Shown here: positions 10,963 through 54,540 of the stretch, in pieces
How the letters are laid out: each line of letters begins with the position of its first letter
How positions within the stretch are numbered: the first letter of the stretch is position 1
Assembly: GCA_028711445.1 (NCBI GenBank)
Contig: JAQTSD010000002.1
Span: forward strand, 27,044-91,043
Direction of reading: 5' to 3'
Source of the DNA: Candidatus Peribacteraceae bacterium
GTDB taxonomy: Bacteria > Patescibacteriota > Gracilibacteria > Peribacterales > Peribacteraceae
DNA: 64,000 bases
Made by a program: the position numbers and the translations under genes
Notes under the pieces: generated by a model
The model's input: the letters and a program-made list of their open reading frames with translations, nothing else
What the model was told of the DNA's origin: nothing
Database searches by the model: none

Positions 10963-11988
10963 ATGAACATTCTTGCCCGCTTACTCTCCGTCCTCGTGTT
11001 CGCACTCACGTGTTTTGTTGGTGGAGCGCTCCTACTTGTCGCACTCACGGTTGCCCATCATCCGCAAGCGAAGACGCCGTCATACCGCTCCGTTCCGGCT
11101 GAGCCGGAAGCCAAGCCGGCGTTCTCTATCATCCTCTCTCGTTTGCCACTGCTGCCGTCGTTTTCGCGCGGAAAGCAACTCGTGACGGTCATGATTGAGA
11201 ATCATGAGGCGGCACGGCCGCATCAGAAGGGCTTGAGCGATGCACTCCTCATCGAGGAGTTCTTCGTGGAAGGTTATATTTCACGCTTCGCCGCACTCTA
11301 CGATGTTAAGCATCTTCCGAATATTCTCGGTCCTGTCCGGTCACTGCGGCCGTACTTCATCGACGGCATGCTTCCGTGGAGTCACATCTTTATTCACGCA
11401 GGCGGCAGTCCGGAAGCGCTCGGGCGTTTCGCGACGGATCCCACGATCACCTCCCTCAATGGACTGCATTTCTACGATCATTTCCAGCGCGACGAATCCG
11501 TGCCTGCGCCGCACAATCTCTTCCTTGCGGCTGATCGTGCTCTCGATCTCCTCTCATCCGATCTCCCTTCGATTGCGTGGCCACCTTACCCGGTTGGCAA
11601 TGCGTCGGGCGGAAACGAGGCAAGCGTGATCTCCATCAACTTCTTCAATCCGGAAAACAATGTTACCTACACCTTTGATTCGGGCCTTGGGCGATACATC
11701 CGCAAGAACGGAGACATAGTGAGCGAGGCAGAACCGTCGAATGTGCTCCTTCTGCAGATCCCGGTTCTCGGCGAGGGGGAGTCTGGCCGTCTTGATATCG
11801 ATGTTGTCGGCAAGGGCAAGGCCGTACTCTTTCGTTCCGGTGTAGCTATCGAGGGTCGATGGCGCAAGGATGCCGTCAGCAAGCCGTTCGTCTTCGAAGA
11901 TCTCTCTGGTCAGTTGCTTCCGTTCAGCCGCGGACAGACATGGATCACGGTGGTGGATTCACTCGAGGGGAGAGTGAAGTGGAAGTGA
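10963..11988 (+). CDS. DUF3048 domain-containing protein (membrane-anchored)
   Basis: N-terminal TM helix, then VMIENHEAARPHQKGLSDALLIEEFFVEGYISRFAALY...PVRSLRPYF, which is characteristic of DUF3048. Confidence 0.8.
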   Translation: MNILARLLSVLVFALTCFVGGALLLVALTVAHHPQAKTPSYRSVPAEPEAKPAFSIILSRLPLLPSFSRGKQLVTVMIENHEAARPHQKGLSDALLIEEFFVEGYISRFAALYDVKHLPNILGPVRSLRPYFIDGMLPWSHIFIHAGGSPEALGRFATDPTITSLNGLHFYDHFQRDESVPAPHNLFLAADRALDLLSSDLPSIAWPPYPVGNASGGNEASVISINFFNPENNVTYTFDSGLGRYIRKNGDIVSEAEPSNVLLLQIPVLGEGESGRLDIDVVGKGKAVLFRSGVAIEGRWRKDAVSKPFVFEDLSGQLLPFSRGQTWITVVDSLEGRVKWK

Positions 11989-11993
11989 TGATG

Positions 11994-12070
11994 AAAGAAT
12001 CCAAAGAAACCAAAGAGTCCAATGAGTCCAAGGGAATTCATCTTTGGCTTCCTTGGTTTCCTTGGACTCC
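11994..12070. repeat. palindromic element built from tandem 9-mers (NNNNCCAAR-G), copy B
   Basis: GAATCCAAAGAAACCAAAGAGTCCAATGAGTCCAAGG ... TTTGGCTTCCTTGGTTTCCTTGGACTC. 12024-12033 pairs perfectly with 12060-12069. It shares AAAGAAACCAAAGAGTCCAA with copy A and lies between convergent genes. Confidence 0.6.
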
Positions 12071-12109
12071 TCGCTGCCACGGAGCAGAGAGCCCCATCGT
12101 ACAACTGGA

Positions 12110-12463
12110 TTATTCCTGCCCCCGCTTATGGCGTGCAGAAATCATCCGTCCGCGCCGCGTTTTCAATTCCTTGTATTTTTTGAGCTGCGGTTCGAGCTTC
12201 TCCATGCATCGGTCTACCGCTTCGATAGGGTCACGTTTCCGCGATTCGGCACGTAGGATCTTCCCCGGCAACTCCACCGTGAGCGCGATCAGGATCTGGT
12301 CGCGATTCTTCTCCGTCAGCTGCATCTCCGATTCGATGCGGACGACAGAATCTTCCCGATTGAGCCTCTTGCAGTAGGTGGCGAGTCGGCCGAGCTTACG
12401 CGCAATCGTGAGGCGCTGTGTATCAGAGTAGGAGAATCCGCGTTCGAGGTGAATGATCTTCAT
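12110..12463 (-). CDS. hpf: ribosome hibernation promoting factor / RaiA family (short form)
   Basis: 117 aa. ...ILIALTVELPGKILRAESRKRDPIEAVDRCMEKLEPQLKKYKEL matches the S30AE/HPF C-terminal helix pattern (IDKLERQLRKYKEK-like). Confidence 0.8.
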   Translation of the reverse strand: MKIIHLERGFSYSDTQRLTIARKLGRLATYCKRLNREDSVVRIESEMQLTEKNRDQILIALTVELPGKILRAESRKRDPIEAVDRCMEKLEPQLKKYKELKTRRGRMISARHKRGQE

Positions 12464-12531: not shown

Positions 12532-12560
12532 TTGAGAAATTCCGCAGAATTTGCTATAAT
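12532..12560 (+). promoter_or_regulatory. sigma-70 type promoter (-35 TTGAGA, 17 bp, TGc-TATAAT)
   Basis: TTGAGA at 12532-12537, TG at 12552-12553, TATAAT at 12555-12560, ATG at 12581. Confidence 0.55.
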
Positions 12561-12580
12561 ACAAACACATACACACTTCC

Positions 12581-12838
12581 ATGCCCACCGACTTAAGTCG
12601 CCTCATCAGCCTGGTGAAGGGGAGCAAGCTCCTCATGGATGACGAACGCAAAGAGTGGCTCGCCAAGATGGAAACGATGTCCGAGTCGCAGCTCAAAAAG
12701 CTGTCCGACATTCTCGAGCGTGCGGAGAAAGTGAACTGGACTCAAGAACTGCCCAAGTACGAGGCAGCCGTTCAGGCGGCGGAAACATTCGTACAATCGA
12801 CGCAAGCAACACTCTCTTCCCCTCTCACCAATGCCTGA
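12581..12838 (+). CDS. hypothetical helical protein (first gene of orphan cluster)
   Basis: 85-aa ORF behind a consensus promoter, with an 8-nt overlap with the next ORF. I recognise no family. Confidence 0.5.
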   Translation: MPTDLSRLISLVKGSKLLMDDERKEWLAKMETMSESQLKKLSDILERAEKVNWTQELPKYEAAVQAAETFVQSTQATLSSPLTNA

Positions 12839-14201
12839 GCCATTCGTTGAATCCTTTGAGGAAGGAAAGAGATCGGCGAAAGAGAGATTGGATGCTCTCA
12901 AGAAACAAATTCAGGAAACAAGAGAACTTCCTGTGACTCCCGCAGCAGCACCTGCCGCTGCGCCCGGAGTAGTACCGCCTCCGCCCACCCCTGAGACGCC
13001 CGCGCAGCAACAGGCACGATTCAATGAATTGAAACCAAGAGTGGATGCTCTGAAGGAAAGTGCGACGGGTACGATTGATGTGCTGAAGTCACGGTATTCA
13101 GATGCCAATGCCATTGCGAAACTCGACGAACTGCAGACTGCGATCTCGAATAAAATCACCACTCTCGTCGCCAAAACGACCATTGGAGAATTGGTAACCG
13201 AACTGAATGCCCTGAAGACAGAAGTGACAAATGTTGCTGCTGCGAACAAGCTTGGGAAGAAATTTGAGAACGCGAAAGATGCCATTCAAGCTGCCACTCA
13301 GGCGCCCGCAAGCAAAATCGTCAGCGATGAGATGACGCCACAGGAGATTGCACTCCGAGAGCAGGCAGATGCCGGCATGGGGTTTCTCAAAGGGACCAAG
13401 TGGCTCTTCGATCTGTGGATGAGCGCCCAGCCGATCATCAAGATGTTCCAGAAGATGAAGTGCATGGGTGACAAGGCGTGCGTGCAGCAGGTGGAGACGG
13501 AAGCTAAAGGACTCCAAGATCAGTTCGATGCGATCCACGGCACGCGCGATCTCCGTGAACGCTTCAGTAAGGCGCTCAAGGGTCGTGGTCTCACAGTGCG
13601 GCAGGGGACCAATGATGAATTGGCACTCGTGCGTTTTAAGGAACTGGAAGCCAAAAATCCGACAATGAGTCGTGAGGCGATTGTGTCCGCCGCCGCCAGC
13701 CAGTACCTAAGCAAGGTGCCGCCAGCAGCCGGGAAAAATGTGGTGACGCTCTATGGCATTCTCTTTGCGCAAGAGGCAGCCACGTCGGGTACGGAATCCC
13801 TTCAGCGGGAGGCTCCCTATGAAATCAAATTTGGAAACGGTCCGAAAGACAAGTATCAAGTGAACGCGAAAGGTGATGCACTCATCATTGGTGGTGCAGC
13901 ACACAAGCTCAAGGCAACAGGGACAGGTGTCGTTGGGAAGGATCTCAAGTTTTCACAGTTGGATATCACGAAGAAACCAGCGGTCGCTCCCGCAACCGTC
14001 GATACCTACTCTCTGACTCTTGGCATTTCCAGTCATGGCTTGCTGGGAGACAAGGTGGTGCACTCCGAGACATTCGATGGAAATGATGCCGTGAAGAAGT
14101 TCCTCGATGACGTGAAAGGAAAGAAACTCTCTTACGACGTTCAGGAGACGAAATATTTTGGGATGGCCAAGGGCGATGCATATAAGATTGAAGTGGCATA
14201 G
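12831..14201 (+). CDS. hypothetical protein (Pro-rich N-terminus, coiled-coil, C-terminal globular region)
   Basis: 456-aa ORF that is translationally coupled to the upstream ORF. I recognise no motif. Confidence 0.6.
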   Translation: MPEPFVESFEEGKRSAKERLDALKKQIQETRELPVTPAAAPAAAPGVVPPPPTPETPAQQQARFNELKPRVDALKESATGTIDVLKSRYSDANAIAKLDELQTAISNKITTLVAKTTIGELVTELNALKTEVTNVAAANKLGKKFENAKDAIQAATQAPASKIVSDEMTPQEIALREQADAGMGFLKGTKWLFDLWMSAQPIIKMFQKMKCMGDKACVQQVETEAKGLQDQFDAIHGTRDLRERFSKALKGRGLTVRQGTNDELALVRFKELEAKNPTMSREAIVSAAASQYLSKVPPAAGKNVVTLYGILFAQEAATSGTESLQREAPYEIKFGNGPKDKYQVNAKGDALIIGGAAHKLKATGTGVVGKDLKFSQLDITKKPAVAPATVDTYSLTLGISSHGLLGDKVVHSETFDGNDAVKKFLDDVKGKKLSYDVQETKYFGMAKGDAYKIEVA

Positions 14202-14228
14202 GGCGGGTTTTACGGAGAACCAATGTAC

Positions 14229-14303
14229 GTCATCCTGAGCTCGTCGAAGGATGATTTACCAAAGTTTGCGGGAGACATTATGGTTCGACGGGCTCACCAT
14301 GAC
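14229..14303. repeat. GTCATCCTGAGC...GTCGAAGG motif with imperfect inverted partner
   Basis: GTCATCCTGAGCTCGTCGAAGG (14229-14250) and TTCGACGGGCTCACCATGAC (14284-14303) form an imperfect palindrome. A related motif occurs at 48187-48209. Confidence 0.4.
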
Positions 14304-14328
14304 GTGTTTTTTGATTCCAAAAGCTTTC

Positions 14329-14357
14329 TTGGCTCGCAGCCCGATTTCTGCTATAAT
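14329..14357 (+). promoter_or_regulatory. sigma-70 type promoter (-35 TTGGCT, 17 bp, TGc-TATAAT)
   Basis: TTGGCT at 14329-14334, TG at 14349-14350, TATAAT at 14352-14357, ATG at 14384. Confidence 0.55.
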
Positions 14358-14383
14358 TTAAGGAAAATTACACACTCTTCTTT

Positions 14384-16411
14384 ATGGCTTCATCCGGTCG
14401 CGGCATCGACAACGCGCGGTTCTCGGAAGGGTTCCGCAATCCACGTCCAGAGCTCAATGAGAGTGCAGATATTCGCAGAACCACGTCAACGCGCTTAAGC
14501 GCGTTGCGCGGGGTCATCGGGGATATCGCCCGTCTCGACGATCGGGCTCTACAGACCCAGAAGGTGCATGAATTGAGTAAGGAAGAACTCAAGCAGTTGG
14601 TGAGGGATATCCGTATCAATCTGGCGAATCTTCCTGATGTCTACCATGAGACATGGATGATCGATGCGATTGGCAAGCAGGTGGAGCAGAAGTTTGAGGA
14701 GACCGATTCCGCGAAGAAGAAGGAGAAGGATGAAGTACAGGAGGATTTGCGGAAGCTCGAGGTCGAAGTGAATGCCAAGCGGGGGATCCAGCATCAAGTA
14801 TTTTTACCGAGAGAGTGGTCGTCTACTCGGAAAATAGTCGTGGGGAGTGTGGCGGCGGGTGTCGTAACGGTTGCTGCATTGTCCGCATTATGGGCGGGAT
14901 GGAAACTCCTCACTCGGGAGCCGAAGAACACCCCGAGTGGCGGTATGGGTTGGAAAGGATGGGCAGCGTTGTTCATTGGTGGCGCCGCCGCAGTAGGAGT
15001 CGTCGCGCTCTGGAGGAAATACGACAGCCTCAAAGAGTGGGTCATGAAGTATCTGGATGTCGAAATCAAAGCGAAAGTGGAATTCATCAAGGAGCTCACA
15101 GAATTACACAGCCCCGCCATCCAGCCAGAGTCTCTTCCTGCGAGGGCGGCGGAACTTACGCGCATCCTTGCACAGATCAAGCCGGAGAATCGGAAAGCAT
15201 TCTTGCTCGATGCGTCGGTCACGGGAGGAAAATTCACCGAAGGACCGCCGCCACATGCCTTCACGCGCACGATCGATGTCACAATGGGGAGCGGTCGCAA
15301 GCACAAGGTGATGATCGATGCGGCGGGGAAGGTGACGATTGAGAAGGTCGATGCGCCGAGGGCGGGACCTGAGGCGGTTCCCACCGCATCCGGATCGGCT
15401 GTCATGGCGCTATTGGATATTCATCGCGGTCTTGCGGCCGGGGAAGGTCTGCGTACAGACACCGCACGGCAGGGAGTGGTGACCCTCATGGAAAACCCAG
15501 CATTGCACGTTGCCGATATTCCGCTGAAGGATCTTCTTGATACCACATCCCCTGCGTTTGCCGGTCACCTCGGCCGCATGCCTGATGAACTGTCGAAGTC
15601 CGCCCTCCGGTTTCTTGCCAAGGTGTGTCAGAAAGACATTCGGACCAATGGTCTGCTTCAGAATAAATCCGTGAAAAGTGCCGCGGGTGTGTGGCAACCC
15701 ATTGATCTCAATGCACTCACCCTTGGTCGTTATCTGGATTATGTCGGTCCGGCGATGCGCACCATCCATCGCCATAATCAAGCATGCAAGAGACATCCAT
15801 TAGGATTTGCACCGGTTTACGATCGCCATGCTTTTCAAGAGGCTTTCAGGGAGATATCGCCGGATCATTCCATCCTGGCGGAAGACTTGCGTTCTGCGGA
15901 CGGCAGAGAGGCTCTGCGTACCCTCGATTCTCAATTGGAGCCGCATAGGGATGCATTCATCAATCTTCTTTCAACGATCGGGGCCAACCCAATGTCTATG
16001 TACAACGATGCGATGATTGCATCGGTTCCGGAACCGCAGCGTGCAATCTTTCGTCGAGCGCTCACGGCCCTGAAAGGGAAATTTAATCCGCCGCCCCGTT
16101 GGCTGACGAGGTATGGGCCAGCTTTTCCTACTGTTGTGAATGCCAATGGAAAACTCACGGAGGCATTGCAGTCGCTCTCTATCAGAGATGCTATGCAACT
16201 GTGGTTCATGCGTCAGCAGGCCTACATCCAGATGCCTCCTCCGGATGATTTCGATGATGCATCGGTTCCTGCAAATCATCAAGCGCTCGGACGACTCCAA
16301 TTGTGGCTGAAGGTTGTGGAATTGATTGCACGCGTTGATCCTGTGGTGGCTCAGAATTACTACAAAGCTGTTATCAATCGGGAACCTTCTGTGGGATCTG
16401 CCGGGCCTTAA
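14384..16411 (+). CDS. hypothetical membrane protein with a bilobed (two-helix hairpin) hydrophobic segment
   Basis: 675 aa. Coiled-coil N-terminus, then KIVVGSVAAGVVTVAALSALWAGWKLL, a short loop, and GWKGWAALFIGGAAAVGVVALW, followed by a ~460-aa soluble region. I recognise no family. Confidence 0.65.
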   Translation: MASSGRGIDNARFSEGFRNPRPELNESADIRRTTSTRLSALRGVIGDIARLDDRALQTQKVHELSKEELKQLVRDIRINLANLPDVYHETWMIDAIGKQVEQKFEETDSAKKKEKDEVQEDLRKLEVEVNAKRGIQHQVFLPREWSSTRKIVVGSVAAGVVTVAALSALWAGWKLLTREPKNTPSGGMGWKGWAALFIGGAAAVGVVALWRKYDSLKEWVMKYLDVEIKAKVEFIKELTELHSPAIQPESLPARAAELTRILAQIKPENRKAFLLDASVTGGKFTEGPPPHAFTRTIDVTMGSGRKHKVMIDAAGKVTIEKVDAPRAGPEAVPTASGSAVMALLDIHRGLAAGEGLRTDTARQGVVTLMENPALHVADIPLKDLLDTTSPAFAGHLGRMPDELSKSALRFLAKVCQKDIRTNGLLQNKSVKSAAGVWQPIDLNALTLGRYLDYVGPAMRTIHRHNQACKRHPLGFAPVYDRHAFQEAFREISPDHSILAEDLRSADGREALRTLDSQLEPHRDAFINLLSTIGANPMSMYNDAMIASVPEPQRAIFRRALTALKGKFNPPPRWLTRYGPAFPTVVNANGKLTEALQSLSIRDAMQLWFMRQQAYIQMPPPDDFDDASVPANHQALGRLQLWLKVVELIARVDPVVAQNYYKAVINREPSVGSAGP

Positions 16412-16432
16412 TCATCCAATTTATTTTTCACT

Positions 16433-19400
16433 ATGTCAGAACAAATTCCCTCCCAACAGCCTTCCTACACAGCTCTCGAGCAGATGGCCTCTGTGGCAAT
16501 GGATGAAGCATTGGGCAAGATGTCCATTCAGCAGTTGCAAGCATTGGTTGTGGAAATGAAAGACAGCCCGCGAGTAGCGCAGTCGGTGTTTTCGGCTGTG
16601 AATCGCCGCCTCAGTGCCTTTGAAGAGGTTCAGCGGGGCAAACGAGAGCGAAACGAGACATTGGAACAGGCGCGGCAGCAACTCGAAGATCTCTCCGGAA
16701 AGGTGCATGTTCCGTCAGATGTCCCGACTTCGCCGTCTCCCGGATCGAGTAAGCCAGTCGAGCAACGTACAACGCCAGTTGCTCCTACTGAGACAGTGGC
16801 AGTGGCACCGTCTACTCCTGCACCGACTTCACCAGTGAGTCCGGAATTGCCTCCATCGGCAGTTCCCGCTGTCACTGACACGCCGACGGGACAAGCGGAA
16901 GATCTGCTGCAGGGTCCCGAACGAATCTCACCGGTTGCTCTGGAGATGGCTCGAGATGAAGTGATGGCATCTTTCATAACAGGTTTGCTTCAGATGTATC
17001 CGGATCAGATGGAGAAATCTGGTATCACGGAAAAAGAAGAAGTGAAGGCAGTGACTCGCCTATTACTCTCACGCGCCGATATTCCCAACTGTCGTTTGGG
17101 TTTGCTGTGCAAGGTCCAATCTCTTGCTGACATCGATCGATTGAATATTTTCTCCGCACAGCCGAAGCCGATAGAGGCCGACAAAAAAGCAGCATGGTTC
17201 CTTGCCATGGTGAGTCAGCATCACGAAGCCTTTCTCCGGAAGAAGTTCACCGGTTCCAATGGTCGAAAGCGTTTTGAAGATCTGACAGTCAATGAGTTAA
17301 CGCAATACCTGTGGTATCCTCTCAGGGGTGCCGGGAAACTCATCAAAGGTGTCAAAGACGGTACTCTGGAAGGTGCCGGCATCGAGCAGGTGGCTGAGGC
17401 CATTCTCCCCTCGGCCAAAGAGTCGTTTGAACAGGCTCGGAGCAACATTTCATTGCAGAAGCGGATGTTAGAGTTGAATGCAGATCTACAAGGAAGAGAG
17501 AAGGATTTCCTGACATTCTGCGAGCATTATCGGACGATGACATTGCACGGTCTTACGGCAGATTCTCTCCAGAAAGCTCGCAAATTTTTCCGTTTGGATG
17601 ACATTCCCATATTCATCTCCGCTTTGCACACCCTCTCAGTCAGAATCAAAGATAAGAACAGCCCGATGCGGCAGTATCTGCGCAGGTTCGCCCACGGACG
17701 AAAGCAATTTGAAGAGGTATTGGATGGAAGCTTGGACAAAAGCATCACCATTGGCGATGCCATGGAGATCTATGCCTTGCTGAATAATCTCCGGGAGGAT
17801 GAGTCGGGGGGCTACCCGAAGAGTCTTAAGGACAGTGCCGATGGTACTGCCACGTTCTTCTTGCAGATAAAAATTGCACGCATGATCGGTGCTGCCAATG
17901 ATTGGCAGGGCAATCGCATCAAATATTTTCTATTCAATAACTGCGCGCAGGGCATCGTTTCCGGCGCAGCAAACATTGATCTTCCGGACGGAGCCATTCA
18001 GTATGTTCGTCAGGCGCTCAGTCCTGTTGCGAAAGGGGTATTCAAGCGTTCTGTGGGATGGTTGTGGGATTGGGCTTCGGAAGGTGTGCAAGAAGGTGCA
18101 GCTGTCGCTCTGGAGGCAACTCCTTTGGAGCTGACAGTTGTGGGAGGAGGCACTGCTATGACAGGTGTTGCTGCGTGGAAATTATATCGATATAGATACG
18201 ATTGGCGTTTTCTGCGGGATGTTGCCACTGCGGCGGCTGCACCGGATGCATTCATTCGTCGGCTTGTGCGAGCAGGCCTTTCTCCTGAGTATGCGAGAAG
18301 TATTGTCGGCACGGTGTGGGGATCCGGTGGGGTGTATAATAAACAGTATTATCCTCGCTCATTGAGCGAGCGTGTATCACAACCGGTTGGCCGCGTCACG
18401 ACAAGAGGGAAGGCAGTTCGGCAGATAGAGTATCTCTTGCGAGACAGTGGAAGTGGCATGACCAAGGATCAACTGTGGAAGATCGCGCAACAAATTGATC
18501 CCGTATCGTCTTCCTTGGCGAATCTCCTGCCACAGAAAGTTCGCGCGGCTCGGGAGCTTGGGCAGCGTTGTCAACAGATTGAGAGTATGCCGCGACGTAA
18601 TCCAAAGGAAATAGAGGCATTTCGTAAGGCGAGGAAAGAGTTCGAACAGTCGGCTCGCGCCTTTCAACGTGGCTTCAATGAATATTGCAAGATGGCTCAC
18701 CTGCCCGAAGCCAGGCGCGAAGCGGCGGTGGCAGCCATCGGTCGGCCCTTAATGGATCAAGAGTGGACACAGCTTCAAGAGGCGCATGCGGCCAAGGGTC
18801 TCCAAGAAAAATATCGCATTCTTGTTGGGGATATCGCTGACCTCAAACCGGCAGAGGTGAAGCGCCGCGTCGAATTTGCGGATCGCATGATCCGCACTGG
18901 GTTGGCAGGGGAGTTCGATGAAGCTGCCGATGCAGGTCGTATTCTATGGGAAGCCAGTGCAGAAGGGGCAAACGTTGTGCAAAGCGCGAAGCCACGTTCC
19001 ATTGGTGGTGAAGGAGCCAGTGCCTTGGATGATCAGCCCGAGAGTGTGAAGCAGGCGGCGACGAAGCAGGCTGTTGCGGCAGAGGGTGAGCCGGGTGTCG
19101 CAGCTCGTGCTGCAGACAGCGGTGTGGAAGCGACCGGCGGCGCCACGCGTTCCGCGCGGCAGGCGGAGCAGCAGTGGGCGAAGCTGCTCAATGAACAGCA
19201 GTGGGCGAAGGTCCTCAAGAACTTCAAGAACGTGCGCGTGGAGGATGTCGATGCTCTCCTCAAGCTTGCGCAGGAGACGGGAGCCATTGATCTGGATGCC
19301 AAGACACTCGCTCTCATCCGCCAGAGCGGCAAGGCCAAGGAGATCATCGCCGGTGCCGTGCAGACGACGGACGTGTCGGAGGTGGGACGTGCGCTCAAAG

Positions 19401-20956
19401 CGGCGAAGCTTGCTGCCAGCCTTCGTATTGCGGGCAATGTTGCCGGCTTCGCGGGGGATGCTTTTGGTCTGTATATGGCATACTGCGATTGGCAGGAGAA
19501 TGGAAAGAAAATCGCGGCCACGAGCAACCCGGCTCTCAAAGGTCTCTACTCCCGGATGAAGATCGTCTACGCGACGGAGGGAACATCGAGCGCAGTGGGG
19601 ATCGCCGTCGGGTCTGTGGTCATCGTCAAAGCTTTCGTTGCGGGAGAGGGCGCGCTTGCTGCGTTCGGGGCATCCGGCGGACTCGTCATGCTGCCCATCG
19701 CCGCGGCAACCATTTCCGGCAAGCTCATTGCCTCGCAGATGTACGCCGTCGCCGAGACGTGGCAGCAAGACGAGCGGGATTGGTTCAAGAAGCATGAAGG
19801 AGATCTTCTCAATCAGTTGCGCGCTCTCGGTCCCGGTCAGCAGAGCTACTGGCAGGGGAGCGGTCGGACATCCCTTGCCGGACAGGCGGCTCGCAAGATC
19901 AAGAGTTGGGTGACGCTCAATGGCGATGAGTACCGGCAGTGGCAAGATGAGATCTTCTCTCAGACCGAATCCGCGAATGCAGGTGCGCGCTTCCAGATCA
20001 CGAGAGCACTCCTTCGGCGCATGACGGCCCTGCCGCGTGAGCCGGGTGAGACCGATCAGCAGTATACCAAGCGCTTCGACGAGCACGTCATGGAGCAAGC
20101 CAAATTCATCGGCTTCGTCTCCGAAGGGGGCTTCTCTGCGCAGATGATGCCGATCTACGAGCAGGCGCAGACATTCGCTGAGGTGCAACTGCTTTCGAAG
20201 AAGCTTCGTGAGCAGGGGGCGACGCGAATGATCCGTGTGCAGAAGAGAGATGCGGAGACCGGGAAAGAATCTACGGTGGAGTTCGATCTCGCGAAGTTCG
20301 ATCAGCTGCTCAAGGAGACGGCCACCGAGCGTGGAACATCAATCTCTCAACGTGGCAAAGATGGCGTGAGTGCCTTGGAGGTGCTCATGGCGTTTGAGCG
20401 TGGGGAGAAGGAACAGGATCTTATACAGGTGGGTGTTATGAAGGAGCTCTCCAGAGGATCGGAGAATAGTGAACACATGACGAATACCACCATGCAGCAT
20501 CTTCTCTTGCAGGAGTTGCGCCATAGCCTTGCGCTATTTGAGAGCAGGCTCTTAAGTACGAATATGGTTGGATGGGAGTGGACTGGTGGCGAGGGGAAGA
20601 CCCGGGACAATGTCCGCGTCATCGTGCAGTATCACGTTCGCAGGCTCCTACGGCAGGAGGCAGACAGGCTCTGTGCTCTCTCCTCTCAATCCGTTGAGGA
20701 ATTCGATGCATCCGTACAGCAGATCAAGGCGTACCTCGAGCAGGATGGCTCCAAGTTCGAGGCGGAGTTTGCCAGTCAGCAGAACAAGGATATCTACCAG
20801 CGGGAAGCGTCTGAGCTGCGTGCTCAATTTGCGGAAGAAGGCCAGACCACGCAGCAACTGCTCTCCACACCGTGGCTTGCACAGCATCTTTACGTGATTC
20901 CTCCGAAGGGGTCTGTAGAGCGGGGGGTTGGAAGGATCGAAGAGCCCTCGCAGTGA
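16433..20956 (+). CDS. very large hypothetical protein (1507 aa) with P/S/T-rich linker and central hydrophobic segments
   Basis: Uninterrupted 4.5-kb ORF starting 21 nt after the previous stop. It has a Pro/Thr/Ser-rich stretch (nt ~16700-16890), hydrophobic blocks (AGNVAGFAGDAFGLYMAY; AVGIAVGSVVIVKAFVAGEGALAAFGASGGLVMLPIAAATISG) and no recognisable catalytic motif. Confidence 0.7.
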   Translation: MSEQIPSQQPSYTALEQMASVAMDEALGKMSIQQLQALVVEMKDSPRVAQSVFSAVNRRLSAFEEVQRGKRERNETLEQARQQLEDLSGKVHVPSDVPTSPSPGSSKPVEQRTTPVAPTETVAVAPSTPAPTSPVSPELPPSAVPAVTDTPTGQAEDLLQGPERISPVALEMARDEVMASFITGLLQMYPDQMEKSGITEKEEVKAVTRLLLSRADIPNCRLGLLCKVQSLADIDRLNIFSAQPKPIEADKKAAWFLAMVSQHHEAFLRKKFTGSNGRKRFEDLTVNELTQYLWYPLRGAGKLIKGVKDGTLEGAGIEQVAEAILPSAKESFEQARSNISLQKRMLELNADLQGREKDFLTFCEHYRTMTLHGLTADSLQKARKFFRLDDIPIFISALHTLSVRIKDKNSPMRQYLRRFAHGRKQFEEVLDGSLDKSITIGDAMEIYALLNNLREDESGGYPKSLKDSADGTATFFLQIKIARMIGAANDWQGNRIKYFLFNNCAQGIVSGAANIDLPDGAIQYVRQALSPVAKGVFKRSVGWLWDWASEGVQEGAAVALEATPLELTVVGGGTAMTGVAAWKLYRYRYDWRFLRDVATAAAAPDAFIRRLVRAGLSPEYARSIVGTVWGSGGVYNKQYYPRSLSERVSQPVGRVTTRGKAVRQIEYLLRDSGSGMTKDQLWKIAQQIDPVSSSLANLLPQKVRAARELGQRCQQIESMPRRNPKEIEAFRKARKEFEQSARAFQRGFNEYCKMAHLPEARREAAVAAIGRPLMDQEWTQLQEAHAAKGLQEKYRILVGDIADLKPAEVKRRVEFADRMIRTGLAGEFDEAADAGRILWEASAEGANVVQSAKPRSIGGEGASALDDQPESVKQAATKQAVAAEGEPGVAARAADSGVEATGGATRSARQAEQQWAKLLNEQQWAKVLKNFKNVRVEDVDALLKLAQETGAIDLDAKTLALIRQSGKAKEIIAGAVQTTDVSEVGRALKAAKLAASLRIAGNVAGFAGDAFGLYMAYCDWQENGKKIAATSNPALKGLYSRMKIVYATEGTSSAVGIAVGSVVIVKAFVAGEGALAAFGASGGLVMLPIAAATISGKLIASQMYAVAETWQQDERDWFKKHEGDLLNQLRALGPGQQSYWQGSGRTSLAGQAARKIKSWVTLNGDEYRQWQDEIFSQTESANAGARFQITRALLRRMTALPREPGETDQQYTKRFDEHVMEQAKFIGFVSEGGFSAQMMPIYEQAQTFAEVQLLSKKLREQGATRMIRVQKRDAETGKESTVEFDLAKFDQLLKETATERGTSISQRGKDGVSALEVLMAFERGEKEQDLIQVGVMKELSRGSENSEHMTNTTMQHLLLQELRHSLALFESRLLSTNMVGWEWTGGEGKTRDNVRVIVQYHVRRLLRQEADRLCALSSQSVEEFDASVQQIKAYLEQDGSKFEAEFASQQNKDIYQREASELRAQFAEEGQTTQQLLSTPWLAQHLYVIPPKGSVERGVGRIEEPSQ

Positions 20957-20975
20957 AGTGAGGTAAGATAGCCCG

Positions 20976-21764
20976 GTGCCCCTCTCCTACTCCCAGCTCG
21001 CTATGTACCGTCGCTGCCCGAGGCAGTACGAGTTTGCGGTCAGAAAGAAGTTGCCGTGGGGAATCAGTCCCGCAGAGAGCTTCGGGGCGAGCGTGCACAA
21101 TGCGCTCAAGAAGTGGGGGGAATTGGAGCGAGCTTCAAGCGGAAAGCTCCAAGCTTCAAGCGGTCAACAGGAATTATTCGCTGCTGAGAAGAAGGGTGAG
21201 GAGATAGAGCTCACGGAGGAAACGCTGCTCAAGATCTGGAGCGGGTGCTTCTCGCCCGAGGCATTCGCTACCCGTCTCGAGGCGGACTTTGCACGGGCCC
21301 GCGGGGAGACGCTCCTGCAGCAGTTCTACGCGTGGTGGGCGCGCGAACGGCGCCGCGTCGTTGCAGTCGAGAAATCTTTCTCCATCGCTCTCGACGGCTT
21401 CAAGCTCACAGGCCGGTTGGATCGCGTCGAGCAGATCGATGGGGGAGTTGCCATCATCGATTTCAAGACGGGGGAGCTCAAGGAGCAGGATGCGGTGGAT
21501 AGCGACCTGCAGCTCTCCGTGTACGCACTTGCGGCGAAAGAACTCTTCGATACGCCGTGCCACGGCCTGACGCTGCTCTTCCTCAATGAGGACGAAGTGA
21601 TCGAACGCACGACACAGCGTAGCGAAGGACAGCTCAAGGATGCCGTGCGGCAGATGCATGCACTTGCTGAGCGGATCGAATCCGCGGATTTCCACCCCAC
21701 GCCGGGGAAGGCTGTCTGCCGGTACTGTCCCTATAGAGGAGTGTGTGATATGGCGGCGGTGTGA
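20976..21764 (+). CDS. PD-(D/E)XK nuclease, Cas4/AddB-like with 4-Cys cluster
   Basis: N-terminal YRRCPRQYEF, the core GRLDRVEQIDGGVAIIDFKTGE, and C-terminal CRYCPYRGVC give the Cys-x(n)-CxxCx5C pattern of Cas4/AddB iron-sulfur nucleases. GTG start. Confidence 0.75.
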   Translation: MPLSYSQLAMYRRCPRQYEFAVRKKLPWGISPAESFGASVHNALKKWGELERASSGKLQASSGQQELFAAEKKGEEIELTEETLLKIWSGCFSPEAFATRLEADFARARGETLLQQFYAWWARERRRVVAVEKSFSIALDGFKLTGRLDRVEQIDGGVAIIDFKTGELKEQDAVDSDLQLSVYALAAKELFDTPCHGLTLLFLNEDEVIERTTQRSEGQLKDAVRQMHALAERIESADFHPTPGKAVCRYCPYRGVCDMAAV

Positions 21765-46419: not shown

Positions 46420-48108
46420 ATGGCGAAGCGGACTCCTGACCATGAACCGGGCCAACCCAAGAAGAAGAAATTTGGACCTCATCTGCGTTTGGAGGCTCTC
46501 CTTGCGAAGGAGTGCACTATCGAAACGAGCAGGCTTTCTGAGTGCAATCAGCTCGATATTTGGAGACACCAGAGAGAACGACTGATTTGTGACTTGGCAT
46601 TCATTGGTCTCGATCAGGGCGACCATTCCGAAATAACAGTTGCCGATCTTCATGATCGCGAAGAACTCATTGAGGCTCTTCTGGATCTTGTCCATAGAAA
46701 CCGTTTCAACCCCGATGAAAGCAATGATGTGTTGGGGATGGATCGCCATGCAATCGAGTGTGAGTGCGGTATCAAGTTCGGGAAAAGGTTCTGGTCAATG
46801 CGAGAGCCATTCATCGAGAACTGGCAAGGACGGTACCGTCCTGATGCGGCGCGGCGCGAACTATTGAAACGCGTGATCGAGGAGGAGAAGCAAACGGAAG
46901 AGAAAGATCAATGGCCGCTGGAAGACCGTGTATGGGACTGGGCACAGTGGTACTTCCGCGGTGGATGCCCGCGAGAGGTGGAAGTTCCGGAGGATCAAGA
47001 TCCCGAAGAAGTTCTTCGCATACTTGATCGGGATTGTGCATTCATCGAGCAGCTCTCTTTATCAGAGTCTGATTGCGGAGAGGCGATTCGATCATTGATA
47101 ATTCAATTTCTCAGTGGCGAATACCCGATTGTCACCAGCGAAGAGGATCCTGTATCTGAGGAGGCCATGCTCGGAGTCGCCGAAAGGATTGCACGGGCTC
47201 CGGATGCAGCTTTCCTTGGCGAAGGTCTTCGTGGTATTGCAGTTTCAAATGTGATGAAGCGGTATCGGGAGTATCTTGCACAGGGTCTCAGTTTCGAAGC
47301 GGAAGAGGCGAAAAGAGGAGAGGAGCAGCAGGCAGAGGATCGCATGCTTCTTCTCAGTCGCGAACGAGCGCAGAGAGAATATGATGTCGAATCTGCTTTT
47401 CTACAGAGTTTGAATCTTCCCGATTATGAGGCGCAGCAATGGCCGGAATTACTTCGGTGTGCTCTTTTACGTGGTGCAATACATATCGATCCAGCCTACC
47501 GTGAACGCGTTCATGGCCATGTGCGATGTTTCATCGGGAGAATGCCATGGCCCAAAGAGGAGCTCCCGGGAGCCGATCCATGGGGTCCATTAGGGCAAAT
47601 GCTGGCGAGCTATTGGCATGGTCATTACTACCCCGACAACTTACGGTGGAGGATTCTCCAGGAAGAATGTGCGAAGCTTCCACCGGGTTTTTCTGAAAGA
47701 AGGGGCGGGCTCTCGTCCATTGTTTCTACCTATCTATTACATGTCATGTTTATGGAAGGGTGTGCGAACGATGGTGCCAAGGTTGGTGCTTCTCAGGATC
47801 CGGAGATGCTCGAAATGGCCTATGCAAATGATATGCAACTCATTCGCAATCTCGGACTTCCGGATGACCTCTTCCGGGAAGCGGAATGGGGATATAACGA
47901 ATGGCTGCTTGGGGGGAATTTTATGCTCGCCGCCGATCGCGAATTGCCGGAGGATAGGGATAAACTTGCGAGACGACTGGCTGCTCGTCTGGAGGAGAGT
48001 GGAGGAGATCCTGCACAAGTCAGTTCATACTTCGTGAGCCAGATCCTTCAGGAGTTTTGTGAACATTGGCTCGCAGTTTCCAAGCGTCCAGCGCCTAGGA
48101 AGGAATGA
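46420..48108 (+). CDS. hypothetical acidic protein (562 aa)
   Basis: Long uninterrupted ORF behind a near-consensus promoter. It is rich in Glu/Asp/Trp/Cys, has no TM segment, and I recognise no family. Confidence 0.6.
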   Translation: MAKRTPDHEPGQPKKKKFGPHLRLEALLAKECTIETSRLSECNQLDIWRHQRERLICDLAFIGLDQGDHSEITVADLHDREELIEALLDLVHRNRFNPDESNDVLGMDRHAIECECGIKFGKRFWSMREPFIENWQGRYRPDAARRELLKRVIEEEKQTEEKDQWPLEDRVWDWAQWYFRGGCPREVEVPEDQDPEEVLRILDRDCAFIEQLSLSESDCGEAIRSLIIQFLSGEYPIVTSEEDPVSEEAMLGVAERIARAPDAAFLGEGLRGIAVSNVMKRYREYLAQGLSFEAEEAKRGEEQQAEDRMLLLSRERAQREYDVESAFLQSLNLPDYEAQQWPELLRCALLRGAIHIDPAYRERVHGHVRCFIGRMPWPKEELPGADPWGPLGQMLASYWHGHYYPDNLRWRILQEECAKLPPGFSERRGGLSSIVSTYLLHVMFMEGCANDGAKVGASQDPEMLEMAYANDMQLIRNLGLPDDLFREAEWGYNEWLLGGNFMLAADRELPEDRDKLARRLAARLEESGGDPAQVSSYFVSQILQEFCEHWLAVSKRPAPRKE

Positions 48109-48235
48109 CCAAGGCAATAATTCGTAGAGGCAATAAGCTCTGCCACTAGTGGTTCGCGACGGAATTTCCTCTATACTATGCGATGTGTCATCCTGAGCCT
48201 GTCGAAGGGTCGACACACCGTTGTTCTTTGAGCTA

Positions 48236-48310
48236 GGCCCTATCGTCTAATGGTTAGGACATCAGGTTTTCAGCCTGAGAATCGGGGTTCGATTCCCCGT
48301 GGGGCTGCCA
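48236..48310 (+). tRNA. tRNA-Glu (anticodon UUC)
   Basis: Manual cloverleaf fold. Acceptor stem GGCCCTA/TGGGGCT (two G-T wobbles), D arm GTCT/GGAC, and anticodon stem TCAGG/CCTGA with loop TTTTCAG (anticodon TTC). T arm CGGGG-TTCGATT-CCCCG, with an encoded CCA. Confidence 0.9.
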
Positions 48311-48460
48311 TTCTGCGTCGCAAGCTATGCAGAATGGCAGGGGGGTGGTCTGCGAAGCTCTCTGCTTTGCGTAGCTTCGCAGCGCAAAGCGCGGAGTATG
48401 ACCTTGGAGTTGCTGGAATAAATATTCCGGTTGATCAGCTATAACGCTATAGTCTGAAGC

Positions 48461-51400: not shown

Positions 51401-51463
51401 ATTCGTGCCGGTATGGCGAGAGGGTTTGACCATATCGTTCCCGATAGTTTGTTTACCAAATAA
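48461..51463 (+). CDS. res: type III restriction enzyme, Res subunit (SF2 helicase plus PD-ExK nuclease)
   Basis: Walker A MATGSGKTVVMA, DEAH box INDEAHHCY, motif VI QVVGRALRR, and a C-terminal nuclease core YIPDFIAV...LLIEVTGKK. Confidence 0.88.
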   Translation: MSSDLMEDPILNSPYNEPSRHFGADERGLTQEVVESRRPSSFYIPVPKAKTKQKQLDLHLAEGAFGSELQKENEFINKVRAKIKEWRAIGYSGITKASRDLLMYWKDESRDNKLFYCQIEALETLMYINEVAEKSGDSWIINELKKANADANPGLYRLAFKMATGSGKTVVMAMIIAYHTLNKIRYPQDTRFTDAFVIVTPGITIRDRLNVLHPNDPQNYYRLRNIVSYQDLELLQQATVHITNFHQLEQRQNQRFQVGGVLKAAKLLKEEAMKETPSAMVNRAFKSVLSKSRVLVINDEAHHCYREKPSEQKLSGEERKEADENNKAARVWISGLEALAQKININAVIDLSATPYFLSGSGYAEGTLFPWTTFDFSLLDALECGVVKIPRLPIESDTISIDDEPEFRNLWLHVRDNLPKKGLKTGNYDLSVLILPTKLQEALESLYGNYEKYHREYEKQKKGNPAVMPPVMIVVCNNTTVSELLYRWIAGYERETASGQIKIEKGNLEIFRNEDGVRFFDRPSTLLIDSAQIESGEKISDEFKKIFTKEIADFHKEYHKRFPGREDPTDEELLREVMNTVGKPGKLGENIKCVVSVSMLTEGWDVNTVTHVLGVRAFSTQLLCEQVVGRALRRVDYSVDDSTGLLSPEYAEVYGVPFSFLKATGPTPPQPPKVIHRVRSLPEREDQYQITFPRVEGYRYELNETKLSAHFTEESKTIIENEPTEVTLGGLIGKEEKEMLEKIKERREGEVIIRLVQSLLKRYYTDADGSEKYWLTPKLMKITEEYVKHHVILKDRMVIGYLSVGAYFSGALTKIQQAIVTDNLESQKDRKVLPILAPYDTLGSTRYVDYLTTKEVRETVKSHINYVVADTQEWEQGVAKKLEQMPEVLAYVKNQNLGFTIPYEHQGAAHQYIPDFIAVLKLPDGSKLNLLIEVTGKKDDKKATKIKTARELWVPAVNNNGKFGVWAVIEIQDIHETQNLIRAGMARGFDHIVPDSLFTK

Positions 51464-53946: not shown

Positions 53947-53982
53947 TACCCAACTTCTTTATCATATTATGAAACCAAAAAT

Positions 53983-54540
53983 ATGAAAGCTAATCCCTCC
54001 GAGCAGCCATCCATTCATCTCTGTAAACAATGTGGCAGAATTCCTAAAACAAATGAGGATCCCACATTTGTTAACTATAGCTGGAAAGTCTGGGATAAGT
54101 CTCGGGATCGAGGAAGAATCTGCGAATGCGAACACTGTGAACAGCGATTCTTGGAATACGATATTTCAGCAGACTTCTACGGTCCAAAGGCATTTGAAGT
54201 GAGCATAGAAGGTACTGATTGGATTCCCATTACAAAGCAGGAAGTGGATATCCTCAGATCGAACGATGCGGGATGGTGGTACATTAAAAAACTCGTAACT
54301 ACCAGAAGTCATCTCTATAGAGAAAATGGTCGGTATTTTTGGCACAAACTAAAAAAACAAACAAAAGCGAAGGATTTAGCTGATAGCATGCTACGTGCTC
54401 TGAAAGAAGTTAACGAACGATCTATGCGAAAGGGTGGGGGTTGGGTACCACAGTGGGATGAAATGAACGGGAATGAACGTAGGGAATATCTGAAGTTTCT
54501 TGAAGAAAAAACTCGTCATTCCTCAGACAGAGAAGAATGA
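53983..54540 (+). CDS. hypothetical Zn-ribbon protein
   Basis: 185 aa. CKQCG...CECEHC provides four Cys ligands. Basic C-terminal half. Lies in the low-GC island. Confidence 0.5.
   Translation: MKANPSEQPSIHLCKQCGRIPKTNEDPTFVNYSWKVWDKSRDRGRICECEHCEQRFLEYDISADFYGPKAFEVSIEGTDWIPITKQEVDILRSNDAGWWYIKKLVTTRSHLYRENGRYFWHKLKKQTKAKDLADSMLRALKEVNERSMRKGGGWVPQWDEMNGNERREYLKFLEEKTRHSSDREE

What the first reader, a model, noticed from the sequence alone, without database searches (positions are those of the whole stretch)
12581..20956. Four-gene block of orphan proteins (85, 456, 675 and 1507 aa) with hairpin-type hydrophobic segments
8.4 kb (13% of the window) encodes four co-directional proteins with no motif I can recognise. 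Two near-consensus extended -10 promoters drive them (12532-12560 and 14329-14357). The 675-aa protein has a bilobed hydrophobic segment: two TM helices joined by a short loop, at nt ~14830-15020, after a coiled-coil N-terminus. This topology is reminiscent of membrane-inserted effectors such as chlamydial Inc proteins. The 1507-aa protein has a P/S/T-rich spacer and several Gly/Ala-rich hydrophobic blocks in the middle of an otherwise helical, charged sequence. None has a classical signal peptide. In reduced or episymbiotic lineages such giant orphans are candidates for cell-surface or host-interaction machinery.
Basis: partly seen in the sequence, partly recalled or inferred. Interest (0 to 1): 0.6.

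Follow-up and report, generated by a model that had tools for sequence, protein, structure and literature searches.

The report
Split giant membrane-hairpin protein, Peribacteria-specific
The four genes are real, conserved and match nothing known, but the largest is not an orphan: it belongs to an undescribed family of giant membrane proteins found only in the ultra-small Peribacteraceae, and here its usual front membrane anchor sits on the separate 675-residue protein; what it does is still unknown.

Summary
All four genes are intact and under purifying selection (dN/dS 0.15-0.32) in a sister species.

No Pfam, NCBIfam, PHROGs, PADLOC, PDB-sequence or Foldseek match is significant.

The 1507-aa protein is not an orphan. 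Its C-terminal half defines a family of 115 cluster representatives, nearly all 1000-2400 aa. A profile finds it in 48 of 101 Peribacteraceae genomes and in 1 of 178 other genomes of the class.

Most members begin with a coiled-coil head and a Gly/Ala-rich membrane hairpin. In this genus that module is on the 675-aa protein, so the pair looks like a split giant.

The best-conserved part is a second hydrophobic hairpin flanked by near-invariant polar residues.

Between the two species, the 675-aa hairpin region and part of the 456-aa protein are only about 26-40% identical, inside flanks that are 64-98% identical.

The Inc-like effector reading has no support, because the genome has no T3SS or T4SS marker.

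Best reading: an undescribed, fast-evolving envelope or membrane module of unknown function. The scan has noted similar orphan blocks in other Peribacteria genomes.

The parts
12110..12463 (-). hpf (ribosome hibernation factor). This divergent neighbour marks the upstream edge of the block. The + strand ORF 11859-12377 is its antisense shadow, not a gene.
   Evidence: Read from the sequence. The equivalent gene in the sister species carries PF02482 Ribosomal_S30AE.
12532..12560 (+). Promoter-like site 1: TTGAGA, 17-nt spacer, TG, TATAAT.
   Evidence: The -35 hexamer and the TGCTATAAT are conserved in the sister species.
12581..12838 (+). 85-aa helical protein with no hydrophobic segment. It overlaps the next gene by 8 nt.
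   Evidence: It is 82% identical in the sister species, with dN/dS 0.29. A 109-aa relative sits in the same relative position in one other genus.
12831..14201 (+). 456-aa signal-less partner protein. It has a charged helical head, a Pro-rich linker, a helical middle and a beta-rich C-terminal part. Residues 51-150 are hypervariable.
   Evidence: dN/dS is 0.15. Residues 51-150 are only 26-40% identical to the sister species, against 64-84% elsewhere. Other genera have proteins of 360-430 aa with the same layout upstream of their giants. Homology to them is only hinted at (hhalign probability 24%).
14230..14254 (+). Copy of a dispersed hairpin repeat in the gap between genes 2 and 3.
   Evidence: Its 10-mer occurs 23 times in the 1.25 Mb genome, where about 2 are expected.
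14329..14357 (+). Promoter-like site 2: TTGGCT, 17-nt spacer, TG, TATAAT.
   Evidence: It is conserved in the sister species.
14384..16411 (+). 675-aa protein. Its first third is the family's N-terminal module (helical head plus Gly/Ala-rich two-helix membrane hairpin). The remaining ~450 aa are genus-specific.
   Evidence: A profile built from the N-terminal modules of 66 giants of other genomes hits this ORF alone among 10,711 six-frame ORFs of the genome (E 3.4e-13).
14795..15313 (+). Hypervariable cassette inside the 675-aa gene (about aa 138-310). It covers the membrane hairpin (nt 14831-15016) and the ~100 residues after it.
   Evidence: There is no nucleotide alignment to the sister species over 14795-15293, although the flanks are 90-94% identical. 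Protein identity is 28-30% here and 78-98% on both sides.
16433..20956 (+). 1507-aa giant helical protein. It has a helical head, a P/S/T spacer (nt 16709-16912), a family-conserved middle region (aa ~160-590) and a family-defining C-terminal domain.
   Evidence: It is 95% identical in the sister species, with dN/dS 0.16.
19205..20932 (+). Family-defining C-terminal domain (aa ~925-1500).
   Evidence: Alignment A1. It gives 115 representatives by phmmer. In the AlphaFold2 model, aa ~1170-1490 form a helical bundle with pLDDT mostly 70-93. No Foldseek match was found.
19445..19783 (+). Most conserved core (aa 1005-1117). It runs G-x-AGD-x-FG-x-YMA, then T-x-N-x-ALK-x-LY, then a Gly/Ala hydrophobic hairpin (aa 1050-1101, nt 19580-19735) with an MLP motif, then E-x-W and DW.
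   Evidence: Conservation was measured over 82 family members. Identity to other genera is 42-56% here, against about 20% elsewhere.
20976..21764 (+). PD-(D/E)XK nuclease, the conserved downstream neighbour. It is probably co-transcribed. Functional linkage is not shown.
   Evidence: PF12705, E 3.8e-38. It is the first or second gene downstream, on the same strand, of the giant in 8 of 28 loci examined. In two genera without a detectable giant it stands without one.

Best explanation
The block encodes a membrane module specific to Peribacteraceae.

**The core protein.** Its core is a giant, almost all-helical protein with two hydrophobic helical hairpins. In most genera this is one polypeptide of 1100-2400 aa. 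It has a helical head and a Gly/Ala-rich hairpin near the N-terminus, a long helical middle, a second hydrophobic hairpin flanked by near-invariant polar residues, and a C-terminal helical bundle.

**The split in this genus.** Here the front module sits on the 675-aa protein and the rest on the 1507-aa protein. I infer that the two assemble into the equivalent of one giant. The signal-less 456-aa and 85-aa proteins would be accessory partners.

**Where the function lies.** The second hairpin and its polar flanks are the best-conserved part, so the function probably lies in or at the membrane (a conduit, a membrane-inserting element or a membrane-shaping element), not in a soluble enzyme domain.

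**Likely role.** The patchy distribution, fast divergence, tandem paralogues in some genomes and locally replaced segments fit an envelope or cell-contact role better than a housekeeping one.

**Shown versus inferred.** Shown: gene reality, selection, family membership, the split architecture, the conserved core and the absence of known relatives. Inferred: membrane insertion, complex formation, topology and role.
For: **Reality and selection.**
- The ORFs are intact in the sister species, with dN/dS 0.15-0.32.
- The same four genes are called on six independent contigs.

**Family.**
- There are 115 representatives in 1.84 billion proteins, nearly all 1000-2400 aa.
- A profile hits 48 of 101 family genomes (41 of 84 genera), with no stop codon inside any match and nearly all in open frames of 1000-2400 aa.
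- It hits 15 of 22 genomes inside the family and 1 of 178 outside it within the class.

**Split architecture.**
- Residues 160-590 of the 1507-aa protein match the region after the N-terminal hairpin in other giants.
- Residues 65-199 of the 675-aa protein match the N-terminus of giants P0098 and G012:C2.
- The N-module profile hits only the 675-aa ORF in this genome (E 3.4e-13).
- At least 60 of 100 long members have an N-terminal hydrophobic segment.

**Conserved core.** Invariant or near-invariant G, D, T, N, L, Y, P and DW residues surround the hydrophobic hairpin.

**Partners.** They have no hydrophobic segments. A similar trio of a ~400-aa protein, a ~85-aa protein and a giant occurs in other genera.

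**Variability.** Tandem giants occur in G089 and G091.

**No known relative.**
Against: - Membrane insertion rests on hydropathy only. AlphaFold2 modelled the central hydrophobic stretch with low confidence, and as strands.
- Topology is unresolved. Across 74 N-modules the loop between the two helices is strongly positive (mean 6.5 K+R against 2.2 D+E in about 25 residues), while the flanks are near neutral. By the positive-inside rule this puts the large domains outside the cell. That is hard to reconcile with the lack of signal peptides and with the signal-less partners.
- Physical interaction of the 675-aa and 1507-aa proteins is not shown. The 675-aa protein has about 450 extra residues with no counterpart in other giants, so it may be a diverged paralogue fragment rather than a clean fission product.
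- Homology of the 456-aa and 85-aa proteins to the partners in other genera is not significant.
- About half of the family genomes show no match, so the module is dispensable, or else too diverged to detect.
Confidence: 0.5

Rival explanations
1. The proteins are exported and inserted into the membrane of a partner or host cell. They would act like effectors or translocators, comparable to chlamydial Inc proteins, type III translocators or colicin-type pore formers. The hydrophobic hairpins would be the inserting elements, and the hypervariable segment would set partner specificity.
For: - The bilobed hairpins have short loops or turns.
- The strongly positive hairpin loop would end up on the far (target cytoplasmic) side if insertion were from outside.
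- Divergence is fast, presence is patchy, tandem paralogues exist, and segments are replaced like cassettes.
- About one fifth of family members (19 of 99 long ones) begin with a short E-x-R-L motif. Earlier notes of this scan report such a motif on unrelated signal-less Peribacteria proteins.
- Peribacteria are thought to be symbionts whose strain variation is concentrated in very large proteins (PMC4736985).
Against: - No export route was found. The 99.7%-complete genome has no FHIPEP (T3SS or flagellar gate), no VirB4, and only one FtsK-type ATPase with a match above the family's cut-off, so no multi-domain EssC.
- There are no signal peptides.
- The four proteins of this block lack the canonical E-x-R-L motif.
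- The giant itself is strongly conserved between the two species (95% identity, dN/dS 0.16), unlike typical arms-race effectors.
Confidence: 0.22
2. It is an internal, membrane-tethered cytoskeletal or membrane-shaping scaffold on the cytoplasmic face. It would be comparable to the giant signal-less cytadherence proteins of Mycoplasma (HMW1-3), or to the stalk-and-paddle parts of bacterial dynamin-like proteins but without a GTPase.
For: - The proteins are all-helical and charged, and lack signal peptides. The partners are soluble and signal-less.
- Pro-rich and P/S/T-rich spacers are present.
- The hairpin region of the 675-aa protein (E 1.6e-3) and one other family member (E 1.1e-5) weakly match the PADLOC model LeoBC (a dynamin-like protein, by my own knowledge).
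- The locus shares gene order with housekeeping genes.
Against: - There is no GTPase or P-loop domain in the block. No Dynamin_N match exists anywhere in the genome.
- The LeoBC matches are weak, occur in only 1 of the 35 family members scanned plus the 675-aa protein itself, and lie in low-complexity hydrophobic sequence.
- The positive loop argues against a termini-inside topology.
- A core scaffold would not be expected to be missing from half of the genera.
Confidence: 0.2
3. It is a remnant of a phage or mobile element. The giant would be a tape-measure-like protein and the small upstream proteins its chaperones.
For: The giant is a helical protein with central Gly-rich hydrophobic segments. 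In several genera a small (~85 aa) gene directly precedes it. The top structural hits in the viral library, though not significant, include tape-measure proteins.
Against: - There is no PHROGs or Pfam match.
- No Foldseek hit reaches E <= 0.001.
- There are no other phage genes nearby. The locus keeps a fixed place among housekeeping genes (L25, DUF3048, hpf, nuclease, proBCA, proS) across genera.
- GC content is like that of the surroundings.
Confidence: 0.03

Closest known systems
Chlamydial inclusion membrane (Inc) proteins
   Same: The 675-aa protein has a bilobed hydrophobic segment of two ~20-residue helices joined by a short loop, next to helical or coiled regions. It has no signal peptide.
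   Different: There is no sequence or fold similarity. The genome has no type III secretion gate. The hairpin is part of a conserved module of a giant protein that has a second, better-conserved hydrophobic core. The organism is a CPR bacterium, not an intracellular pathogen.
Bacterial dynamin-like proteins, mitofusin and atlastin (hairpin 'paddle' plus helical stalk); PADLOC model LeoBC
   Same: Both are large helical proteins anchored by a two-helix membrane hairpin. The hairpin region gives weak hits to LeoBC.
   Different: The block has no GTPase domain, and the genome has no Dynamin_N match. The similarity is weak and confined to hydrophobic sequence. The resemblance is in architecture only.
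Mycoplasma cytadherence accessory proteins (HMW1, HMW2, HMW3)
   Same: Both are giant, signal-less, helical proteins with Pro-rich spacers in a reduced-genome bacterium that lives attached to other cells. This comparison rests on my own knowledge.
   Different: No homology was detected. The Mycoplasma proteins have no conserved hydrophobic hairpin core. This is an analogy only.
Small helical partner plus large substrate gene pairs of type VII secretion (Lap/LXG)
   Same: Small helical proteins of about 85 aa are encoded directly upstream of a large signal-less protein with a helical N-terminus.
   Different: Pfam finds no WXG100 or LXG domain. The genome has only one FtsK-type ATPase match above the family's cut-off and no multi-domain EssC.
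Earlier orphan blocks noted by this scan in other Peribacteria genomes (e1-4340751, e1-2944843, e1-4354980)
   Same: Those notes also describe large signal-less orphan proteins with bilobed hairpins. One block lies next to a nuclease gene. In one, a middle segment is swapped between close strains. They also report a short N-terminal tag.
   Different: The index found no sequence look-alike. Whether those blocks are homologous to this one was not tested.

Membership tests
Undescribed Peribacteraceae giant hairpin-protein family (defined here) | A C-terminal domain with the core G-x-AGD-x-FG ... T-x-N-x-x-L-x-x-x-Y ... hydrophobic hairpin with LP ... E-x-W ... DW. | tested here: met
   Residues 925-1500 of the 1507-aa protein align with 9 genomic homologues and 82 library members. 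phmmer E-values reach 1e-147.
Undescribed Peribacteraceae giant hairpin-protein family (defined here) | An N-terminal helical head plus a Gly/Ala-rich two-helix hairpin with a Lys/Arg-rich loop, on the same polypeptide. | tested here: not met
   The 1507-aa protein lacks it. The module is on the preceding 675-aa protein (E 3.4e-13, the only hit in the genome). This makes the locus a split variant.
Chlamydial Inc-type translocated membrane effectors | A bilobed hydrophobic domain. | tested here: met
   Residues 150-172 and 191-211 of the 675-aa protein.
Chlamydial Inc-type translocated membrane effectors | A type III secretion system in the same genome. | tested here: not met
   PF00771 (FHIPEP) is absent from the 99.7%-complete genome, while the controls are positive.
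Type IV secretion transmembrane effectors | A type IV secretion ATPase (VirB4) in the genome. | tested here: not met
   PF03135 is absent.
Type VII secretion LXG/WXG substrates with small partners | A multi-domain EssC/EccC ATPase, and WXG100 or LXG domains. | tested here: not met
   Only one FtsK_SpoIIIE match passes the family's cut-off, in a 742-aa frame; a second match is below it. No Pfam hit on any of the four proteins or on 32 relatives.
Bacterial dynamin-like proteins | A dynamin-type GTPase domain. | tested here: not met
   There is no Pfam hit in the block, and PF00350 is absent from the genome. Only weak LeoBC hits on the hairpin region were seen.
Phage tail tape-measure proteins | A match to tape-measure families, and neighbouring tail genes. 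| tested here: not met
   There is no PHROGs or Pfam match and no significant BFVD fold match. The neighbours are housekeeping genes.
Any solved or curated family (Pfam, NCBIfam, PDB) | A significant sequence or fold match. | tested here: not met
   

The most novel reading that the evidence does not exclude
The split giant and its partners would form a new kind of contact device in episymbiotic CPR bacteria. The helical proteins would use their two hydrophobic hairpins, in particular the conserved polar-lined core, to insert into or bridge to a partner cell's membrane. They would be exported by a still unknown signal-peptide-independent route. The wholesale-replaced hairpin cassette of the 675-aa protein and the variable segment of the 456-aa protein would set partner specificity.
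Probability: 0.12. Interest if true: 0.85.

Novelty: categorically new. Interest (0 to 1): 0.5.

Why it matters
Peribacteraceae are uncultivated, ultra-small groundwater bacteria that are thought to depend on other cells. How they build their envelope or contact partners is unknown.

This block spends 8.4 kb of a 1.25 Mb genome (0.7%) on proteins with no known relative. The family behind it is conserved, under selection and confined to this lineage.

The report gives three concrete handles for experiments and structure prediction: the family-wide core motif, the split architecture, and the sharply bounded hypervariable segments. It also removes the Inc/T3SS analogy as a working model.

The novelty class rests on the absence of any match, not on a demonstrated new mechanism.

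Tried and rejected
**Word-indexed homology searches.** The whole 1507-aa and 675-aa proteins found only the sister species. A search restricted to the core (aa 925-1150) was needed to find relatives.

**The search for related loci.** It could not use alignments A1 or A2, because neither has a sufficiently conserved stretch. The genome-contig scan was therefore not spent.

**AlphaFold2 on aa 161-900 of the giant.** The alignment was shallow and the model unusable (pLDDT 40). I did not fold-search it.

**Accessory proteins.**
- Profile iteration to link the 456-aa protein to the ~400-aa upstream proteins of other genera gave no significant link.
- phmmer among the accessory proteins found no cross-genus links beyond a few pairs.

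**N-terminal E-x-R-L motif.** A profile of it is too short to search the genome. It gave no significant hit, and the 675-aa protein was not hit.

**Paralogy of the 675-aa and 1507-aa proteins.** BLASTP shows none.

**Rejected readings.**
- Prophage or tape-measure protein.
- Defence system: no significant PADLOC match in the block; the only hit, LeoBC on the 675-aa protein (E 1.6e-3), is weak.
- Spurious ORFs: rejected because of purifying selection and conservation.
- The + strand ORF 11859-12377 as a fifth gene: it is antisense to hpf.

Full report
**What is there.** The window comes from contig C35 of a 1.25 Mb genome that is 99.7% complete. Named relatives of the largest protein place it in Candidatus Peribacteraceae (Peregrinibacteria, CPR).

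- 12581-12838, 85 aa
- 12831-14201, 456 aa
- 14384-16411, 675 aa
- 16433-20956, 1507 aa

The block is bounded upstream by a divergent hpf gene on the minus strand (12110-12463). I read this gene, and its counterpart in the sister species carries PF02482. Downstream, 19 nt after the giant's stop, lies a PD-(D/E)XK nuclease, followed by proB-proC-proA-proS.

The two promoter-like sites are the two best in the region. They lie in the only two intergenic gaps, and both are conserved in the sister species. The total number of promoter-like sites is no more than chance gives.

Hydropathy confirms the two-helix hairpin of the 675-aa protein (aa 150-172 and 191-211). It also confirms a Gly/Ala-rich hydrophobic block at aa 1050-1101 of the giant. 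No protein has an N-terminal hydrophobic segment.

**The genes are real.** The congeneric genome G001 has the same four genes in the same order. Amino-acid identities are 82, 64-68, 76-79 and 95%, and dN/dS values are 0.29, 0.15, 0.32 and 0.16. Six independent metagenome contigs of that species carry the same four gene calls.

**Nothing known matches.**
- Pfam, NCBIfam, PHROGs and PADLOC give no significant hit for the four proteins.
- Pfam gives none for 32 relatives.
- PDB sequence searches with single proteins and with family profiles give nothing.
- An AlphaFold2 model of aa 870-1507 has mean pLDDT 67.5, mostly 70-93 for the helical bundle at aa ~1170-1490. It has no Foldseek match at E <= 0.001 in the PDB or in BFVD.

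**The giant is not an orphan.**
- Searching relatives' genomes found its C-terminal half in giant open frames (1266-2031 aa) in 8 of 24 family genomes.
- An exhaustive phmmer search found 115 representatives among 1.84 billion proteins. Nearly all are 1000-2400 aa, with the match in their C-terminal half.
- A profile of ten members hits 48 of 101 Peribacteraceae genomes (41 of 84 genera), with no stop codon inside any match and nearly all in open frames of 1000-2400 aa.
- Within the class it hits 15 of 22 family genomes and 1 of 178 genomes outside the family.
- Two genera that have the neighbouring nuclease but no detectable giant carry no giant at that locus. Presence is therefore patchy.
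- Sources that name the proteins call them hypothetical.

**Family architecture and the split.** The best-conserved part across 82 members is aa 1005-1117 of the giant. It runs as follows:
- an amphipathic helix with G-x-AGD-x-FG-x-YMA;
- a turn with T-x-N-x-ALK-x-LY;
- a ~50-residue Gly/Ala-rich hydrophobic hairpin with a tight turn and an MLP motif;
- then E-x-W and DW.

Most long members also have an N-terminal module. It consists of a helical head, often a 'REW(S/T)' lead-in, a ~19-residue Gly/Ala-rich helix, a ~25-residue Lys/Arg-rich loop and a second such helix.

The 1507-aa protein lacks this module. The 675-aa protein has it:
- BLAST and phmmer link its aa 53-218 to the N-termini of two giants.
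- A profile of 66 N-modules from other genomes hits this ORF alone among 10,711 six-frame ORFs of the genome (E 3.4e-13).
- Conversely, aa 160-590 of the 1507-aa protein match the post-hairpin region of other giants.

So in this genus the giant's parts are spread over two adjacent genes. The 675-aa protein also carries about 450 genus-specific residues, and the 1507-aa protein has its own head and P/S/T spacer. This is therefore not a simple cut. BLASTP shows no paralogy between the two proteins.

**Accessory genes and context.** Other genera often have a 360-430 aa signal-less protein upstream of the giant. It has the same layout as the 456-aa protein: a charged head, a Pro/Thr linker, a helical middle and a beta-rich tail. 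A ~83-93 aa protein is also common there. Sequence links between genera are weak or absent, so I treat these as positional analogues.

The nuclease is the first or second gene downstream, on the same strand, in 8 of 28 loci. ProRS and two small genes also recur. This looks like inherited gene order, and a functional tie is not shown.

**Variation.** Protein identity to the sister species is mosaic:

| Protein | Segment | Identity |
|---|---|---|
| 675 aa | aa 1-150 | 86-92% |
| 675 aa | aa 151-300 (hairpin and what follows) | 28-30% |
| 675 aa | aa 301-650 | 78-98% |
| 456 aa | aa 51-150 | 26-40% |
| 456 aa | elsewhere | 64-84% |

At nucleotide level these segments do not align at all, although the flanks are 79-94% identical. 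The boundaries are sharp. This looks like replacement by a distant allele or very relaxed constraint. Only two alleles were seen.

The stretch 15294-21760 (3' part of the 675-aa gene, the giant and the nuclease) is 93.5% identical. The housekeeping flanks are 85-87% identical. The giant's dS is 0.17, against 0.4-0.6 for the neighbours. This suggests recent exchange between the two species.

**Mechanism.** Shown:
- a conserved, selected, lineage-specific giant helical protein family with two hydrophobic hairpins;
- a split arrangement in this genus;
- a conserved polar-lined hydrophobic core.

Inferred: the proteins sit in a membrane, the two gene products assemble, and the function lies at the membrane core.

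Topology is unresolved. The hairpin loop is strongly positive (mean 6.5 K+R against 2.2 D+E), while the flanks are near neutral. By the positive-inside rule this would put the large domains outside the cell. Against that, there are no signal peptides, and the partners are soluble and signal-less.

The Inc-like effector idea lacks an export route. FHIPEP and VirB4 are absent, and only one FtsK-type ATPase match passes the family's cut-off. A dynamin-like reading lacks a GTPase, and only weak LeoBC hits on the hairpin region were seen. A phage origin is contradicted by the context and by the lack of any phage match.

**Literature.** The description of Ca. Peribacter riflensis reports that strain variation is concentrated in twelve proteins, seven of them very large (1219-3861 aa) and several predicted to be extracellular. 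It proposes roles in attachment (PMC4736985). It does not describe this family.

**Earlier notes of this scan.** Similar orphan blocks with bilobed hairpins were noted in other Peribacteria genomes. One lies next to a nuclease, and one has a swapped middle segment. The notes also mention a short N-terminal tag.

Following that lead, I found an E-x-R-L motif near the N-terminus of 19 of 99 long family members and of several genomic homologues. It is not canonical in the four proteins here, and a profile of it is too weak to search with. The index shows no sequence look-alike to this block.

**Verdict.** This is an undescribed, Peribacteraceae-restricted membrane-protein family in a split arrangement, with unknown function. 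It is of moderate interest. The 'new' label rests on the absence of matches, not on a demonstrated mechanism.

Noticed in passing
window 15294-21760, compared with its flanks: The 3' part of the 675-aa gene, the giant and the nuclease are 93.5% identical in DNA to the sister species. The housekeeping flanks are only 85-87% identical. The giant's dS is 0.17, against 0.4-0.6 for its neighbours. This suggests recent exchange between the two species or unusual synonymous constraint.
   Followed up: partly
window 14230-14254 (gap between the 456-aa and 675-aa genes): A 7-bp-stem hairpin belongs to a dispersed repeat. Its 10-mer occurs 23 times in the 1.25 Mb genome, where about 2 are expected. A second nearby 13-mer occurs 8 times. 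It may be related to the REP-like hairpins noted earlier in Peribacteria.
   Followed up: partly
N-termini of family members (for example L017, L019, L029, L036) and own genome C4:11141-13282, C11:15695-17344, C23:28356-30263: A short motif near the N-terminus (aromatic-x-x-K/R-E-x-R-L-hydrophobic, often followed by P-E) occurs in 19 of 99 long family members. It also occurs in a few unrelated large ORFs of this genome. The 675-aa protein has only a degenerate version (RFSEGFRNPRPE), which is nevertheless identical in the sister species.
   Followed up: partly
L036 (G089:C8) and L027/L028 (G091:C2): Some Peribacteraceae genomes carry two to four giants of this family in tandem or close together (1419/1450/1694 aa; 1601 and 2376 aa).
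   Followed up: no
window 11859-12377 (+): This 172-aa ORF appears conserved in other genera, but it is the antisense shadow of the hpf gene (12110-12463, minus strand) and overlaps the DUF3048 gene. It is not a fifth gene of the block.
   Followed up: yes
L049 and L050 (strains of the sister species): In two metagenome contigs the gene called after the giant is a 183-aa minus-strand ORF instead of the PD-(D/E)XK nuclease. This could be a gene-calling difference or a disrupted nuclease.
   Followed up: no
window 48000-56000: This region has lower GC (0.43-0.47, against about 0.54 elsewhere) and large ORFs of 1000, 827 and 831 aa. It may be another island.
   Followed up: no
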